The notes under the pieces are model-generated. The model was not told the origin of the DNA. It was given only the letters and a program-made list of their open reading frames with translations, and searched no databases. Source: Escherichia phage phiKT. From it: a stretch of DNA of 42,608 bases. Positions 14,494 through 40,500 of the stretch are shown here, one piece after another; positions within the stretch are counted from its first letter, which is position 1, and each line of letters opens with the position of its first letter. The DNA is taken from sequence record JN882298; one strand, written 5' to 3'. Position numbers and translations under genes: made by a program.

Positions 14494-14533
14494 GGGTATT
14501 CGTTAAATATGGCTTGAAGCCTTGATATATGGG

Positions 14534-14560
14534 GTTTCCGCACATTATTTTAATAAGGGG
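14534..14560 (+). promoter_or_regulatory. Phage RNAP promoter-like motif, copy 1
   Basis: gtttccgcacattattttaataagggg; near-identical copy at 38018..38044; ends in a TATA-AGGG(AG) element like T7-type promoters. Confidence 0.5.
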
Positions 14561-14576
14561 TCTGGAGGGTGTTAAA

Positions 14577-14924
14577 ATGTTCCTTAAATTTTTACTTTGG
14601 TTAATTTCTAAGTTAAGCGAAAGCCAACTTAGTAAGGTAAGAGATTATTACCTGATTAGTGGTCCATACCGTAGTGAATTAGAAAGACTACATTCCCGGA
14701 TTAGTGAGTTAGAGGGTGCTCTTTCCTCCTCAGAGTCTGTACCAGAACCTGTTACAGAAATATTCAGTAGAATGAACTATGAGGTGTACGAATACTTTGA
14801 GCGTACAGTAAGTAATACTTCTGTAGCTAGTTCTACTACTGATTTAGAAGCTGGGTTTAAATTAGGTGTCCAGCATGTTCTCGCCAAGTTGAGGAATGGG
14901 TATGTCACACCGCGAAGTCTCTGA
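14577..14924 (+). CDS. Hypothetical protein, AT-rich accessory gene (N-terminal hydrophobic segment)
   Basis: Track ORF 14529..14924; ATG at 14577 with GGAGGGTG RBS; by eye much lower GC and different codon choice (tta, agt, aga) than neighbours. Confidence 0.5.
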   Translation: MFLKFLLWLISKLSESQLSKVRDYYLISGPYRSELERLHSRISELEGALSSSESVPEPVTEIFSRMNYEVYEYFERTVSNTSVASSTTDLEAGFKLGVQHVLAKLRNGYVTPRSL

Positions 14925-15330
14925 TTCTGATTGGGTAGCTAGTGTTCCTAAGTTGGTTGAGGCTATTTGCAACTCACCTAGCAGGATGATATGTGATATT
15001 GACGTAGAGGCTACTCTGGCCCATTTTATGGCCGTAGCCACTCGTGGCGGTGCGTATATTGTCAAGGAGAAGTATCTGGTCGTATTCGACCGCTACAAGC
15101 TCTGGTACGCACCTACCAAGGATATTATCGAAGAGAAGATTGTCCTGTGTATTTATCCAGAAAATCCCGGCTCAATGTTCGATGTTGTCCGATTTCTAAT
15201 TGAACAACGTGATTACCTTGAAGCGAATCACTTGGTCATAGGTGACTTCCTGCACACTAATCAGGAAAAGTATGGTCGAGTCCTAACTAAATTAGGGTTG
15301 ACCAAAATCAACTCAGTTTACGCATGTTAG
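14902..15330 (+). CDS. Hypothetical protein, second gene of the AT-rich accessory pair
   Basis: ATG at 14902 with GAGGAA RBS; 142 aa; no motif recognised. Confidence 0.5.
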   Translation: MSHREVSDSDWVASVPKLVEAICNSPSRMICDIDVEATLAHFMAVATRGGAYIVKEKYLVVFDRYKLWYAPTKDIIEEKIVLCIYPENPGSMFDVVRFLIEQRDYLEANHLVIGDFLHTNQEKYGRVLTKLGLTKINSVYAC

Positions 15331-31093: not shown

Positions 31094-31122
31094 GGTGGGC
31101 TTCGGCCCACCTCTATTTTATT
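31094..31122 (+). terminator. Rho-independent terminator/attenuator before the tail fiber gene
   Basis: 7-bp stem ggtgggc/gcccacc with ttcg loop followed by tctattttatt. Confidence 0.6.
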
Positions 31123-31132
31123 GGAGATTTTG

Positions 31133-33916
31133 ATGGCTATTACGTTTTATGCTACCAACAACTTCACTGGTGATGGTACTACCGTAAACTGGAATATTAA
31201 CTTCGCAGACGGTTACATCGACACCACCGACGTGAAGGCGCGGTATCTGGATAATACCGGGAGCTACGTTGACATCGCTATTTCAAGCGTGGCAGGAAAC
31301 GTAGTAACCATTTCCCCGGCTGTGGCGGACGGTCAGGAGTTCCAAATCTATCGTGATACAGAGAAGCGGTTCCCGCTGGTGGACTTCTCTGACGGTGCAA
31401 TCCTCAACGAGACTAACCTTGACACGCTGGCTACCCAGGCTGTGATGGTATCCGCTGAGGCATTCGACCAATCTAACAACGGTGTACGTATTGCTGGTGA
31501 TTCCTTGACTATCGCGCAAGGTATCGACGCCAAGGCACAGCTGGCTCTGGACAACTCCGAGGCTGCTGTAGCTACAGCGAACGGTATCGACGGTAAAGCG
31601 CAGACGGCATTGAATACCGCCGCCGCCGCTGTCGCCACGGCTAATGCTGCCACATCTACTGCTGCTGGTGCTGTATCTACGGCCAACACCGCACTGTCTA
31701 CTGCCAACGATGCCGCCGATGACGCAGCTACCGCTGTCACTACCGCTAACGCCGCTGTGACTACGGCCAATGCTGCAACCACTACGGCCAACGCCGCTAG
31801 TGCTGCCGCCTCTGCTGCAACGACTACTGCGAACAATGCTGCAAACGACGCTGCTACTGCTGTGTCTACTGCGAATACGGCCTTGTCTACTGCGAACACC
31901 GCATCTACCAACGCCTCTACCGCTGTGTCCACGGCTAACGCCGCTAAGGCTACTGCTGAGGGTATCGAGGCTAAAGCGGATTCTGCTTTGGCAGCTTCTG
32001 CTAACGCTGTGACCACAGCTAACGCAGCTGAGGCTACGGCTAATGCTATCGACGGTAAGGCTACGGACGCACTAAACACTGCTGATGCCGCTGAGGCTAC
32101 GGCTAATACTGCCGCTGCTACTGCGAGTTCGGCTGCTGCTGACGCCAGTACCGCTTTGAGCACAGTTACTGCTGCTGACACAAAGGCACAGACTGCTCTG
32201 GATAATATCGCGTCTCTGGATGCGGCCACCATGAAGAAAGCAGCTAACCTGTCTGATATTGCGGATAAGGCGGCTGCATGGCTTAACGTCCGTCCAATTG
32301 GCTCCACGCCATTGGCAGGCGACCCGGTAGGTGACTACGATGCTGTTACTAAGCGTTGGGTAGAGAACCTGATTAACACAGGTACTGTTGGTCCGACCAT
32401 GAATGGTGTGATGAACTACGGCGTTGGTGATTTTCATCTTCGTGATAGTCGCGCATACATTCAGCCGTATGAGGTTGTATCCGACGGTCAATTACTGAAC
32501 CGCGCTGATTGGCCTGAACTTTGGTCTTATGCGCAAATGTTGTCGCCCATCACCGATGCAGACTGGCTTGCTGACCCGCAAAAGCGCGGCAAGTATTCAC
32601 TAGGTAACGGCGCAACAACATTCCGCGTACCGGACCGCAACGGGGTTCAGGCAGGTTCAATAGCTGCATTGTTTGGCCGTGGTGATGGCGGGGTGTCATC
32701 TAGTGATGGGACAATTCTTGACAGTGCTGCACCAAACATTACAGGCTCATTTGGCCGATTGGTTTACGCGTCAACAGGCACTATTTATGAAGGAAACACA
32801 GGGACAGGTGCCTTCTCTGCTTTCTCACCACAAGCAAAATATAAAAAGATGTCAGACCTATCTTCAATTGATGCTCAGGCAGCGGAATATCCTTCTGGGT
32901 ATGAATTCTTCGCATCAAATTCAAGCCCGGTCTATGGTAGAGGTTCAACAGAAGTCCGACCCAAAGCATTCACTGGTGTTTGGGTGATTCGCGCATCTGG
33001 TGGATTTGTTGCTGCGAATACCCTGTGGAGTGTTATTAATGGCGATGCTACTAAACCCGCTAACAACACAAGTGTTAACGGTGGAGAGATTCAGTCTGAA
33101 TACCGTATTGGTACTCAGGTTGAAGGTAAAACATCTCTGCGATTTGTCGGTACTATCGGTCAGGCTTATGCTGCGCGCCTGAACGTATCAAATAACTCAA
33201 ATACTAATGCCTTTATCTACGATTTCGATGAGTATGGTCGGGTTAACTTCGGCAAACCGGGTGGTGTGATCAAATCTGGTGATATTACTCTGGATATGGC
33301 ATCCAACGGCGATTTCTACGTTACCACAACCCGTTTACGTGTAGAACACCCTACCTCTGGTGGTCAGACTATGGGGATATCCACTCAAGGTGGGGCCAAC
33401 CGTGGTGCTGATCAGGGGTGGTTTGAGCACTGGGGTAACTCCTATGGCGGTGGTTCTGACAAATCTCGTGCAACTGTTGTTGAACTTAAGATTGGTACTG
33501 GTTATGCGTGGTACAGTCAGAAACTAGCGAGTGGCGTATATGAAACCAGATTTGCAAGTGCAATCTATGCAACTGCATTCACTCAAAACTCTGATGAACG
33601 TATCAAGGAAAACATCGAGCGTATTAGCGATCCGTTGGAAAAGATGAAGCAAATTAAAGGTGTTTCATGGAATTTTAAAACGGTTGGTAATGCAAAAGGT
33701 TACGGCTTTATCGCACAGGATGTGGAAAGGGTACTCCCTGAAGCTGTAAGTGTCGGAGGTGGTGAACTGGAACTGACTGACGGTACTAAGGTATCCGATG
33801 TTAAATCGGTAAACACCAGCGGTGTGGCTGCTGCACTCCACCACGAAGCTATCCTAGCTTTGATGGATAAGGTTGAGGCTCTGGAAGCACGCATTGCAGA
33901 ACTAACTTCTCAGTAA
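31133..33916 (+). CDS. Tail fiber protein (T7 gp17-like anchor, Ala/Thr heptad stalk, collar-type receptor-binding region, C-terminal intramolecular chaperone)
   Basis: Track ORF 31121..33916; ATG at 31133 with GGAG RBS; N-terminus (QIYRDTEKRFPLVDFSDGAILNE) resembles the T7 gp17 anchor; tail-collar-like motif (GNGATTFRVPDRNG); last 108 aa (SDERIKENIERISD...) resemble the S74 chaperone domain. Confidence 0.8.
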   Translation: MAITFYATNNFTGDGTTVNWNINFADGYIDTTDVKARYLDNTGSYVDIAISSVAGNVVTISPAVADGQEFQIYRDTEKRFPLVDFSDGAILNETNLDTLATQAVMVSAEAFDQSNNGVRIAGDSLTIAQGIDAKAQLALDNSEAAVATANGIDGKAQTALNTAAAAVATANAATSTAAGAVSTANTALSTANDAADDAATAVTTANAAVTTANAATTTANAASAAASAATTTANNAANDAATAVSTANTALSTANTASTNASTAVSTANAAKATAEGIEAKADSALAASANAVTTANAAEATANAIDGKATDALNTADAAEATANTAAATASSAAADASTALSTVTAADTKAQTALDNIASLDAATMKKAANLSDIADKAAAWLNVRPIGSTPLAGDPVGDYDAVTKRWVENLINTGTVGPTMNGVMNYGVGDFHLRDSRAYIQPYEVVSDGQLLNRADWPELWSYAQMLSPITDADWLADPQKRGKYSLGNGATTFRVPDRNGVQAGSIAALFGRGDGGVSSSDGTILDSAAPNITGSFGRLVYASTGTIYEGNTGTGAFSAFSPQAKYKKMSDLSSIDAQAAEYPSGYEFFASNSSPVYGRGSTEVRPKAFTGVWVIRASGGFVAANTLWSVINGDATKPANNTSVNGGEIQSEYRIGTQVEGKTSLRFVGTIGQAYAARLNVSNNSNTNAFIYDFDEYGRVNFGKPGGVIKSGDITLDMASNGDFYVTTTRLRVEHPTSGGQTMGISTQGGANRGADQGWFEHWGNSYGGGSDKSRATVVELKIGTGYAWYSQKLASGVYETRFASAIYATAFTQNSDERIKENIERISDPLEKMKQIKGVSWNFKTVGNAKGYGFIAQDVERVLPEAVSVGGGELELTDGTKVSDVKSVNTSGVAAALHHEAILALMDKVEALEARIAELTSQ
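31510..32280 (+). repeat. Heptad-coded Ala/Thr repeat tract inside the tail fiber gene
   Basis: Protein shows more than 13 consecutive heptads of the form [ST]TAN.A. plus longer repeated units (ATANGIDGKAQTALNTA-like), from imperfect 21-bp DNA repeats. Confidence 0.7.
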
Positions 33917-33925
33917 GGAGAGCAG

Positions 33926-34297
33926 ATGTCCGACTTCGAAGAAGAGGATGTCACACAGGAAGAGAACGGGTCTTCGGACCTGTTCAAACCCTTAGAGACT
34001 ATCCCCGGCGCTACCGCCAACCGGGACCAGATGGCAGAGCTACACCAGCTTATCTGCATCGCCCTGTCCGCACGTATCCGGGCAGGTATCTGGTCCTCCG
34101 GCGATATTGCCGCAGCTACAAAGTTCCTGAAGGACAACAACGTCACTGCCGATGTTGGCGACAACAAGGCACTCCAGAAACTCCGCGATGAGATGGAGAC
34201 TAAGCAGAAGGCACGTCGTGAAGAACGGACGTATCTCTCTGAGCAGGAACTCGTCAAACTCGCAACGGAAGAACTGAATAACGAGATATGGCACTAA
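33926..34297 (+). CDS. Terminase small subunit
   Basis: 123 aa acidic protein immediately upstream of, and overlapping, the terminase large subunit. Confidence 0.55.
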   Translation: MSDFEEEDVTQEENGSSDLFKPLETIPGATANRDQMAELHQLICIALSARIRAGIWSSGDIAAATKFLKDNNVTADVGDNKALQKLRDEMETKQKARREERTYLSEQELVKLATEELNNEIWH

Positions 34298-40251: not shown

Positions 40252-40500
40252 ATGCGCAAACTTAGTGAAATTGTACATCATACCCACGTATTCTATAACA
40301 GCAAGGGTTATCTGTGGATAACCCTGAAGGAAGTGCGACCTGACGGGCGTCGTCGTGTGGTAGTACGTAAAATGAACAGCAAATACTTCAGTAATTGGTC
40401 ATTGGATACAGTACGCATTAATAACGAGACTTTTCAGATTGACTCACAGATTGACCTACAACCAACGGCAAGCCATTCCGCACCATATTTCTCCAACTGA
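40252..40500 (+). CDS. Early hypothetical protein (basic)
   Basis: GGGAGGA RBS; ATG one nt after the upstream stop; 82 aa. Confidence 0.5.
   Translation: MRKLSEIVHHTHVFYNSKGYLWITLKEVRPDGRRRVVVRKMNSKYFSNWSLDTVRINNETFQIDSQIDLQPTASHSAPYFSN

What the first reader, a model, noticed from the sequence alone, without database searches (positions are those of the whole stretch)
31133..33916. Modular tail fiber: conserved anchor, heptad Ala/Thr stalk, compositionally distinct receptor-binding region, self-cleaving chaperone
The N-terminus resembles the T7 gp17 tail-attachment domain. A ~250-aa tract (31510..32280) follows with more than 13 consecutive [ST]TAN.A. heptads encoded by imperfect 21-bp repeats, which is prone to recombination or slippage and could vary stalk length. 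The central region (about 32400..33580) has visibly lower GC and different codon usage and carries a tail-collar-like motif, consistent with a swapped receptor-binding module. The last 108 aa (33590..33913) resemble the intramolecular chaperone domain that is auto-cleaved at a conserved Ser after folding.
Basis: partly seen in the sequence, partly recalled or inferred. Interest (0 to 1): 0.55.

Follow-up and report, generated by a model that had tools for sequence, protein, structure and literature searches.

The report
Phage phiKT modular tail fibre gene
This is the already described tail fibre gene of coliphage phiKT: a T7-type anchor, a long alanine-rich coiled-coil shaft, a receptor-binding part exchanged with T5-like phages, and a self-cleaving folding chaperone. 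It is a clear but ordinary case of modular phage fibre evolution.

Summary
The window is the complete genome of Escherichia phage phiKT, and the finding is its annotated 927-aa tail fibre (31133..33916). Residues 1-132 match the T7 fibre N-terminal domain. Residues 125-383 form 37 heptads in unbroken register with a Leu/Val-Ala core. From about codon 506 to the stop, third-position GC drops to 0.36 against about 0.58 in other genes. Residues 820-927 are a Peptidase_S74 chaperone with an invariant Ser820/Lys825 pair.

Three details need correcting:
- The literal [ST]TAN.A. motif occurs 10 times, never more than three in a row.
- The collar-like motif lies in a conserved scaffold shared with the sister phage PGT2, not in the swapped part.
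- The low-GC tract starts near 32650 and includes the chaperone.

New detail found here:
- In nine relatives the stalk differs only by whole heptads (155-274 residues).
- Codons 501-625 are a recent exchange patch with T5-like DT57C ltfA.
- Two hypervariable regions and the chaperone reassort independently among homologues.

Published work already reports the link to DT57C LtfA and the O22-type O-antigen receptor. Verdict: already known, low interest.

The parts
31122..31125 (+). GGAG ribosome-binding site, 7 nt upstream of the ATG start
   Evidence: Read directly from the sequence. The 927-aa product from ATG 31133 equals the database protein P0001.
31133..33916 (+). Tail fibre gene of phage phiKT (927 aa plus stop)
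   Evidence: ORF listed. It is 100% identical to 'tail fiber protein [Escherichia phage phiKT]' on a 42608-bp contig. It hits PHROG tail fibre families with E down to 2e-264. It lies between the internal virion protein gene and the terminase genes, as in PGT2.
31133..31504 (+). N-terminal tail-attachment domain (aa 1-124), T7 gp17 type
   Evidence: PF03906 matches aa 1-132, E=3e-12, above the gathering score. It is 93-100% identical to PGT2 and nearly identical in more than 10 metagenomic relatives.
31505..32281 (+). Alanine-rich coiled-coil stalk: 37 heptads in unbroken register (aa 125-383), about 38 nm if alpha-helical
   Evidence: Heptad statistics are and degenerate direct repeats spaced in multiples of 21 nt. 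PF11839 Alanine_zipper matches below threshold, E=0.008. Length differs among relatives in whole heptads.
32234..32329 (+). Conserved junction KKAANLSDIADKAAAWLNVRPIGSTPLAGDPV (aa 368-399), where C-terminal modules are exchanged
   Evidence: Relatives P0121 and P0122 share the anchor and stalk (91% identity) but diverge within or just after this motif into unrelated C-terminal modules. The motif is present in 9 relatives.
32327..32686 (+). Conserved scaffold A (aa 399-518), which contains the collar-like motif GNGATTFRVPDRNG
   Evidence: Identity to phiKT averages 75-95% per 15-residue block over 68 homologues. [quoted passage not shown] Collar PF07484 matches below threshold here and in 27 of 40 homologues.
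32633..33007 (+). Recent exchange patch with T5-like phage DT57C ltfA (codons 501-625)
   Evidence: Nucleotide identity is 82-95% and third-position identity 80-95%, against 35-75% third-position identity in the flanks and no similarity after codon 640. Megablast gives 83.8% over gene nt 1113-1919. The GC3 change point falls after codon 506.
32732..32911 (+). Hypervariable region 1 (aa 534-593), inferred determinant of O22-type O-antigen specificity
   Evidence: Mean identity to 68 homologues is 8-38%. The 30-residue windows spanning aa 511-600 are 87%, 87% and 67% identical to DT57C LtfA but about 25% to PGT2, DT571/2 LtfA and LtfB. Golomidova 2016 mapped DT57C LtfA specificity to a sub-fragment that is 82% identical to the phiKT fibre.
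32912..33046 (+). Conserved scaffold B (aa 594-638)
   Evidence: Identity to phiKT averages 58-88% across homologues and is 80-100% in PGT2, DT57C and DT571/2 proteins.
33182..33586 (+). Hypervariable region 2, the distal part (aa 684-818), of unknown role
   Evidence: Mean identity to homologues is 11-24% with many gaps. The best relatives are kuravirus IMEP8 (40-63%) and proteins on contigs of about 68 kb. It is not shared with DT57C LtfA (17-37%). The AF2 model shows beta-strands at low to moderate confidence.
33590..33913 (+). Intramolecular chaperone / Peptidase_S74 domain (aa 820-927); Ser820 codon at 33590-33592, Lys825 codon at 33605-33607

Best explanation
The gene encodes the tail fibre of the T7-related podovirus phiKT. 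It is presumably a homotrimer built from five exchangeable parts.

1. Residues 1-124 dock the fibre on the tail, as in T7 gp17.
2. Residues 125-383 form a long alanine-zipper coiled coil of 37 heptads (about 38 nm). Its length changes in evolution only by whole heptads, through misaligned recombination or slippage between degenerate 21-nt repeats.
3. A conserved junction (aa 368-399) and a conserved beta-rich scaffold (aa 399-518 and 594-638) are shared with the lateral fibres of T5-like, kuravirus-like and other coliphages. They supply the homology for cassette exchange.
4. Within this scaffold sits a 60-aa hypervariable insert (aa 534-593). It arrived in a recent patch, low in GC, shared with the T5-like phage DT57C ltfA. 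It most likely sets the specificity for the O22-type O-antigen of E. coli 4s, phiKT's obligatory primary receptor. A second hypervariable distal region (aa 684-818) follows.
5. The C-terminal 107-108 residues are an intramolecular chaperone. It trimerises, templates folding of the preceding beta-structure, and then cuts itself off with a Ser820/Lys825 dyad, so virions should carry an 84-kDa rather than a 95-kDa chain.

Shown here: domain identities, heptad register, mosaic breakpoints, composition shift and conservation of the dyad. Taken from the literature: the O-antigen receptor, mapping of specificity in DT57C LtfA, and cleavage in a homologue. Inferred: trimer state, the role of hypervariable region 1 in phiKT, and cleavage in phiKT itself.
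For: - Identity as the phiKT fibre. Gene context.
- Anchor and chaperone above Pfam cut-offs.
- Heptads.
- Whole-heptad length variation: anchor-to-junction distances of 260, 274, 260, 260, 267, 162, 169, 155 and 169 residues, all equal to 1 mod 7. PGT2 has 14 extra residues, and the indel is flanked by CTACGGCTAA repeats 21 nt apart.
- Mosaic map.
- Conserved and hypervariable blocks across 68 homologues. Independent reassortment of the two hypervariable regions and the chaperone.
- Composition: GC3 0.361 against 0.583 +/- 0.039, change point after codon 506. Donor-like GC3 of 0.33 in DT57C ltfA and 0.29 in the IMEP8 fibre.
- Dyad invariant. Chaperone fold.
- EP335 gp13 is 46% identical over 544 aa and is cleaved at Ser621/Asp622 by LC-MS (PMC8217332). 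T5 pb1 has the Ser1264/Lys1269 pair (PMC4690869).
- phiKT strictly needs the O-antigen (PMC6393563). The DT57C LtfA recognition site is 82% identical to the phiKT fibre (PMC4728585). The receptor-binding domains of phiKT and PGT2 are reported as related to T5-like lateral fibres and apparently non-enzymatic (PMC5773715 and PMC10743462).
Against: - No experiment on the phiKT fibre itself was available for cleavage, oligomer state or the binding site.
- phiKT still infects Hf4s-seroconverted lysogens while DT57C does not. So a similar hypervariable region 1 does not give identical recognition, and another region may contribute.
- In T5 pb1 the binding site is at the distal tip, unmasked by chaperone removal. 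That would point to hypervariable region 2 instead.
- The AF2 monomer models of the scaffold are only moderately confident (pLDDT 65-67), and fold searches of that part gave nothing significant.
- The exact scissile bond is ambiguous: before Ser by the T5 structure, after Ser by the EP335 mass spectrometry.
Confidence: 0.85

Rival explanations
1. The receptor-binding site is the distal region just before the chaperone (hypervariable region 2, aa 684-818), as in T5 pb1. Hypervariable region 1 would then be structural or bind something else.
For: In T5 pb1 the binding site is at the tip and is unmasked after chaperone cleavage. Hypervariable region 2 is the longest and most variable block. phiKT and DT57C respond differently to Hf4s seroconversion and differ completely in this region.
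Against: phiKT and DT57C LtfA both recognise the O22-type O-antigen. They share hypervariable region 1 (the aa 511-600 windows are 87%, 87% and 67% identical) but not hypervariable region 2 (17-37%). In DT57C the specificity-switching fragment is narrower than the whole divergent C-terminus and is the part similar to phiKT.
Confidence: 0.2
2. The compositional shift reflects amino-acid content or local selection on the fibre, not horizontal acquisition.
For: Fibre proteins have unusual amino-acid composition. The Ala-rich stalk raises GC at codon position 2 to 0.66.
Against: The shift is at synonymous third positions: GC3 0.36, below every same-size window of the other genes. It starts where similarity to the sister phage PGT2 ends and where 80-95% third-position identity to DT57C begins. 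Likely donors have GC3 of 0.29-0.33.
Confidence: 0.04
3. The C-terminal half is an enzymatic tailspike (O-antigen depolymerase or deacetylase) rather than a purely binding fibre.
For: Many podoviruses that need the O-antigen carry enzymatic spikes. S74 chaperones were first described on endosialidases. One database homologue is named 'endo-N-acetylneuraminidase' and another 'tailspike'.
Against: No enzyme family was hit in Pfam, NCBIfam or the PDB. No beta-helix or hydrolase fold was recovered. The Letarov review states that these receptor-binding domains apparently lack enzymatic activity. phiKT infection is insensitive to O-acetylation.
Confidence: 0.05

Closest known systems
Tail fibre of Escherichia phage phiKT (NC_019520) and of its sister phage PGT2 (Ermolevavirus, Autographiviridae)
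   Same: The window protein is 100% identical to the phiKT fibre. PGT2 shares codons 1 to about 520 at 90-100% amino-acid identity, in the same gene context.
   Different: There is no difference from phiKT. PGT2 has two more heptads in the stalk and an unrelated sequence from about codon 520 on, apart from scaffold B. The two phages have different hosts.
LtfA lateral tail fibre protein of T5-like phage DT57C (Golomidova et al. 2016; PDB 8HQZ chain d)
   Same: Same junction, scaffold and hypervariable region 1: E=1e-182, 83.8% nt identity over 807 nt, and 82-95% over codons 501-625. Same O22-type O-antigen host, E. coli 4s. Same C-terminal S74 chaperone type.
   Different: LtfA has a T5 pb1-type N-terminus that inserts into the LtfC ring of a siphovirus tail, and it carries a second fibre, LtfB. 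Its distal region and chaperone are divergent, 17-37% identical. DT57C recognition is blocked by Hf4s seroconversion and phiKT's is not. Only the N-terminus of LtfA is resolved in 8HQZ.
T7 gp17 tail fibre
   Same: N-terminal attachment domain PF03906, followed by a helical shaft. Same position in the late gene module, between the internal virion proteins and the terminase.
EP335 gp13 (kuravirus-like podovirus) tail fibre
   Same: 46% identical over the whole C-terminal 544 aa, E=1e-129. An O-antigen-binding, non-enzymatic fibre. Its chaperone is removed by autoproteolysis at the aligned Ser, shown by LC-MS. Its central part was reported by HHpred to resemble the T4 gp12 tip.
   Different: Different N-terminus: it attaches through a partner fibre, gp12, in a branched arrangement. 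It has different hypervariable regions and different serotypes, O157 and O26.
Intramolecular chaperone domains of the K1F endosialidase, T5 pb1, GA-1 gp12 and the MyRF ICA domain (Peptidase S74)
   Same: Pfam match, a Ser-Lys pair five residues apart, C-terminal position and fold.
   Different: The domain preceding the chaperone is not a recognisable endosialidase stalk or pb1 tip. Cleavage has not been shown for phiKT.

Membership tests
T7 gp17-type tail fibre (Pfam PF03906 N-terminal domain) | N-terminal domain matches the family model above its curated cut-off | tested here: met
   46.9 bits against a cut-off of 25.2, E=3e-12, aa 1-132.
T7 gp17-type tail fibre (Pfam PF03906 N-terminal domain) | Gene lies in the late structural module of a T7-like genome, after the internal virion proteins and before the terminase | tested here: met
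   A 1400-aa internal virion protein gene lies upstream, and a small ORF plus the large terminase gene lie downstream. The genome is classified in Autographiviridae through PGT2.
T7 gp17-type tail fibre (Pfam PF03906 N-terminal domain) | C-terminal tip domain of the gp17 type (PDB 4A0T) | tested here: not met
T7 gp17-type tail fibre (Pfam PF03906 N-terminal domain) | Homotrimer, six copies attached at the adaptor-nozzle interface | not testable with these tools
   This needs virion cryo-EM or biochemistry.
Peptidase S74 / intramolecular chaperone of tail fibres and spikes | Match to PF13884 above the cut-off, at the extreme C-terminus | tested here: met
   60.1 bits against a cut-off of 22, aa 820-872 of 927.
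Peptidase S74 / intramolecular chaperone of tail fibres and spikes | Catalytic Ser and Lys five residues apart (K1F Ser911/Lys916; T5 Ser1264/Lys1269) | tested here: met
   Ser820 and Lys825 lie in SDERIK and are invariant in 69 aligned sequences. The T5 pair is described.
Peptidase S74 / intramolecular chaperone of tail fibres and spikes | Chaperone fold | tested here: met
Peptidase S74 / intramolecular chaperone of tail fibres and spikes | Autoproteolytic release after folding | not testable with these tools
   Shown by LC-MS for the 46%-identical EP335 gp13 at the aligned Ser. Not shown for phiKT.
DT57C LtfA-type O-antigen-binding fibre module | Conserved junction and scaffold blocks flanking a hypervariable insert | tested here: met
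   Residues 399-518 and 594-638 are conserved, and aa 534-593 is hypervariable across 68 homologues. Residues 391-480 are 93-100% identical to LtfA and 90-100% identical to LtfB.
DT57C LtfA-type O-antigen-binding fibre module | Hypervariable insert of the O22-specific (DT57C LtfA) allele | tested here: met
   The 30-residue windows spanning aa 511-600 are 87%, 87% and 67% identical, with third codon positions 80-95% identical.
DT57C LtfA-type O-antigen-binding fibre module | Binds the O22-type O-antigen of E. coli 4s | not testable with these tools
   The literature reports that phiKT uses this O-antigen as its receptor. Binding by the isolated fibre has not been reported in the papers read.
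Phage tail collar domain (Pfam PF07484, T4 gp12 type) | Match to the family model above its cut-off | tested here: not met
   16.5 bits against a cut-off of 24, covering only profile positions 38-54, aa 487-504. Matches are below threshold in 27 of 40 homologues, best E=3.8e-4.
Phage tail collar domain (Pfam PF07484, T4 gp12 type) | Fold or profile similarity to the T4 gp12 tip | tested here: inconclusive
Alanine-zipper trimeric coiled coil (Lpp type, PF11839) | Heptad repeat with small or aliphatic core residues and no helix breakers | tested here: met
   37 heptads with a=Leu/Val in 17 of 37 and d=Ala in 31 of 37, no proline. The Pfam match is below threshold, 16.9 bits against 23.1. Many relatives carry a precomputed PF11839 hit.
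Alanine-zipper trimeric coiled coil (Lpp type, PF11839) | Parallel trimer | not testable with these tools
   No multimer modelling or experiment was available.

The most novel reading that the evidence does not exclude
The fibre may carry two independent binding surfaces: a lateral one formed by hypervariable region 1 inside the collar-like scaffold, and a distal one formed by hypervariable region 2 and exposed after chaperone removal. That would make a single podovirus fibre bispecific. It could explain why phiKT tolerates the Hf4s O-antigen seroconversion that blocks DT57C despite a near-identical hypervariable region 1. In addition, the heptad number of the stalk may be tuned to the thickness of the O-antigen layer that a non-enzymatic podovirus has to bridge.
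Probability: 0.15. Interest if true: 0.45.

Novelty: already known. Interest (0 to 1): 0.2.

Why it matters
The gene is a clean worked example of how host range moves between unrelated phage types in one gut ecosystem. A 375-nt patch carrying the probable specificity loop is shared almost synonymously between a T7-like podovirus and a T5-like siphovirus isolated from the same horse. Conserved blocks flank it and allow exchange.

The block map (anchor, heptad stalk, junction, scaffold, two hypervariable regions, chaperone) gives practical cut points for engineering fibres. However, the central facts were already published by the Letarov group: the fibre's identity, its relation to DT57C LtfA, its O22 O-antigen receptor and the S74 chaperone type. 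Chaperone cleavage was shown for EP335 gp13. So the finding adds detail, not a new kind of system.

Tried and rejected
- Foldseek of the 544-aa C-terminal model against the PDB gave no hit with E<1e-3. The best was the T4 gp34 C-terminus at 5e-3.
- hhalign of the homologue profile against T4 gp12 was negative.
- NCBIfam gave no useful hit, although NCBI names some homologues 'pyocin knob domain-containing S74 family peptidase'.
- The PDB match to DT57C LtfA (8HQZ) cannot serve as a structural template, because only the LtfA N-terminus is modelled there.
- I looked for a second case linking hypervariable region 1 to specificity, comparing PGT2 with the O81-specific LtfB. Only 30-50% identity was found, so there is no support either way.
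- The phiKT record NC_019520 is absent from the phage collection. Identity was established through the protein database instead.
- The 319-aa antisense ORF 31348..32307 was rejected as a gene. It is the reverse reading of the GCN-rich repeat tract.
- No sigma-70 promoter-like or terminator-like excess was found inside the gene.
Full report
**Identity of the window and the gene.** The region holds one long + strand ORF, 31121..33916. A GGAG box at 31122-31125 precedes ATG 31133, which gives a 927-aa product. This product is 100% identical to 'tail fiber protein [Escherichia phage phiKT]', recorded on a contig of 42608 bp, the length of the window. The window is therefore the phiKT genome. phiKT's own record is not in the phage collection. 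The nearest record there is phage PGT2 (Ermolevavirus, Autographiviridae), about 95% identical over most of the late region. In PGT2 the homologous gene lies between an internal virion protein with an endolysin domain and the terminase genes.

**Check of the four observations.**

1. Anchor. PF03906 (T7 tail fibre N-terminal domain) matches aa 1-132 above its curated cut-off, E=3e-12.

2. Heptads.
   - Residues 125-383 (nt 31505-32281) form 37 heptads in one unbroken register.
   - Leu/Val occupies position a (17 of 37), Ala position d (31 of 37), Ala position g (29 of 37) and Asn position e (14 of 37).
   - All 14 'TAN' triplets share one register, and the tract has no proline.
   - Period-7 power exceeds all 2000 shuffles for three residue classes.
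   - The literal motif [ST]TAN.A. occurs 10 times and never more than three in a row, so 'more than 13 consecutive' is overstated.
   - The DNA repeats are degenerate. Copies are 60-80% identical, the longest exact repeat is 18 nt, and nearly all repeated 12-mers are spaced in multiples of 21 nt.

3. Composition.
   - The shift is real at synonymous sites. GC3 is 0.361 for 32693-33913, against 0.583 +/- 0.039 (minimum 0.521) for same-size windows of the other genes.
   - The best change point is after codon 506, with LLR 10.5, beyond all 2000 permutations.
   - The low-GC tract therefore begins near 32650, not 32400, and it includes the chaperone.

4. Chaperone.
   - PF13884 matches aa 820-872, E=2.5e-16.
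   - Ser820 and Lys825 are invariant in 69 aligned sequences.

**Mosaic structure.** Protein and codon-level comparisons give the following map.

| Codons | Closest relative and identity |
|---|---|
| 1 to ~420 | 97-100% nt identical to PGT2 in most 20-codon windows (83-88% around codons 101-140, 85-92% in 281-380). Similarity then decays and is lost after about codon 520. |
| 391-480 | Nearly identical in protein in PGT2 and in LtfA and LtfB of the T5-like phages DT57C and DT571/2, but with only 25-75% third-position identity to the T5-like genes and 55-90% to PGT2. This indicates an old, conserved scaffold. |
| 501-625 | 82-95% nt identical to DT57C ltfA, with 80-95% third-position identity. 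This indicates a recent exchange patch. |
| after ~640 | No similarity to DT57C. The best relatives are a kuravirus fibre (IMEP8, 40-73% protein identity) and proteins on contigs of about 68 kb. |
| last 27 | 90% nt identical to DT571/2 ltfA. |

Across 68 homologues, the conserved blocks are aa 399-518 and 594-638. The hypervariable blocks are aa 534-593 (hypervariable region 1) and aa 684-818 (hypervariable region 2). The two hypervariable regions and the chaperone type combine independently in different homologues. Candidate donors have GC3 of 0.29-0.33, which fits the low GC3 of the phiKT segment.

**The stalk as a length-variable module.** A search with aa 1-384 found many fibres with a near-identical anchor, an Ala-rich stalk and diverse C-terminal modules. 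In nine relatives that keep the junction motif KK[AS]ANLSD, the distance from an anchor motif to the junction is 260, 274, 260, 260, 267, 162, 169, 155 or 169 residues. Every value equals 1 mod 7, so the stalks differ by 0, +1, +2, -13, -14 or -15 heptads. The five independent differences would all be multiples of 7 by chance with probability of about 6e-5. PGT2 has exactly 14 more residues than phiKT. At the DNA level this 42-nt difference lies between CTACGGCTAA repeats spaced 21 nt apart. That is the signature expected of slippage or misaligned recombination. At about 0.15 nm per residue for a coiled coil (established value), 259 residues give about 38 nm.

**Junction and exchange.** Relatives P0121 and P0122 are 91% identical to phiKT through the anchor and stalk. 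They diverge within or just after KKAANLSDIADKAAAWLNVRPIGSTPLAGDPV into unrelated, shorter receptor modules. The extreme C-terminus (HHEAILALMDKVEALEARIAELTSQ) is again identical in several of them. The receptor cassette is thus bracketed by conserved sequence on both sides (inference).

**The collar-like claim.** The motif GNGATTFRVPDRNG lies in conserved scaffold A, which is shared with PGT2, not in the swapped part.
- Pfam Collar matches only below threshold, 16.5 bits against a cut-off of 24 over 18 residues.
- The same sub-threshold hit recurs in 27 of 40 homologues.
- A profile comparison with T4 gp12 was negative.
- Published HHpred on the 46%-identical EP335 gp13 did report similarity of the equivalent segment to the T4 gp12 tip.

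I rate this resemblance plausible but not demonstrated here.

**Function, from the literature.**
- phiKT strictly depends on the O22-type O-antigen of E. coli 4s. It is indifferent to its O-acetylation, and resistant mutants are rough.
- In DT57C, host specificity was switched by recombination within ltfA. The transferred determinant was narrower than the divergent C-terminus and is 82% identical to the phiKT fibre.
- Taken with the map above, this points to hypervariable region 1 as the O22 determinant. This step is inference.
- A caveat is that Hf4s seroconversion blocks DT57C but not phiKT. Recognition is therefore not identical, and the unrelated hypervariable region 2 may contribute.
- In T5 pb1 the binding site is at the tip and is unmasked by chaperone removal.
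- The review by Letarov and colleagues states that these receptor-binding domains apparently lack enzymatic activity. No enzyme family or fold was detected here.

**Chaperone mechanism.** By analogy with K1F, T5 pb1 (Ser1264/Lys1269) and EP335 gp13, the C-terminal domain trimerises, assists folding of the preceding beta-structure, and then cuts itself off. EP335 gp13 loses 11.8 kDa by cleavage at Ser621/Asp622, which aligns with phiKT Ser820/Asp821. The predicted masses are 95.4 kDa for the precursor, 83.8 kDa for the mature chain and 11.6 kDa for the released fragment. Cleavage has not been shown for phiKT itself.

**Verdict.** The gene, its modular nature, its link to T5-like lateral fibres and its receptor are all already published. 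The added value here is the precise block map, the whole-heptad length series and the synonymous-site evidence for a recent patch. Novelty: already known. Interest: low.

Noticed in passing
window 31094-31120: A strong hairpin, GGTGGGC-TTCG-GCCCACC, followed by a T-rich run, sits in the 41-nt gap between the stop of the internal virion protein gene (31091) and the fibre gene's ribosome-binding site. Its folding energy is -16.9 kcal/mol, z=-3.2 against shuffles. It looks like a terminator or an RNA-stabilising or processing element just upstream of the fibre gene.
   Followed up: partly
window 31348-32307, minus strand: A 319-aa antisense ORF runs through the stalk region. It is the reverse reading of the GCN-rich heptad codons (Ala/Val/Ser-rich) and is almost certainly not a gene.
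   Followed up: partly
window 14529-15330 and 40252-40500: Other ORFs have clearly lower GC than the genome mean of 0.516. ORF 14529-14924 has GC 0.39 and GC3 0.33, ORF 14896-15330 has GC 0.44, and ORF 40252-40500 has GC 0.43. These may be further horizontally acquired islands.
   Followed up: no
window 33833-33913: The last 27 codons of the fibre gene are 90% nt identical to the end of DT571/2 ltfA, with 80% third-position identity, although the rest of the chaperone is only 52-62% nt identical (second megablast piece). This small conserved 3' block could serve as the downstream crossover site for cassette exchange.
   Followed up: partly
proteins P0002 and P0010 (contigs of about 68 kb): Fibres on contigs of about 68 kb carry a hypervariable region 1 that is 77-78% identical to that of phiKT. 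Their hypervariable region 2 differs (50% and 11% identity) and so does their chaperone type. The O22-type insert thus also circulates in a third, larger phage type.
   Followed up: partly
window 1-42608: The window is the whole phiKT genome as deposited. The first 20-50 nt do not recur at the other end, so the record holds no second copy of the terminal repeat that the authors describe for this group, 260 bp in PGT2.
   Followed up: partly
window 33926-34297: A 123-aa acidic protein is encoded 10 nt after the fibre stop and overlaps the start of the large terminase gene. It is annotated only as hypothetical in PGT2 and phiKT. By position it could be the small terminase subunit. This was not tested.
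   Followed up: no
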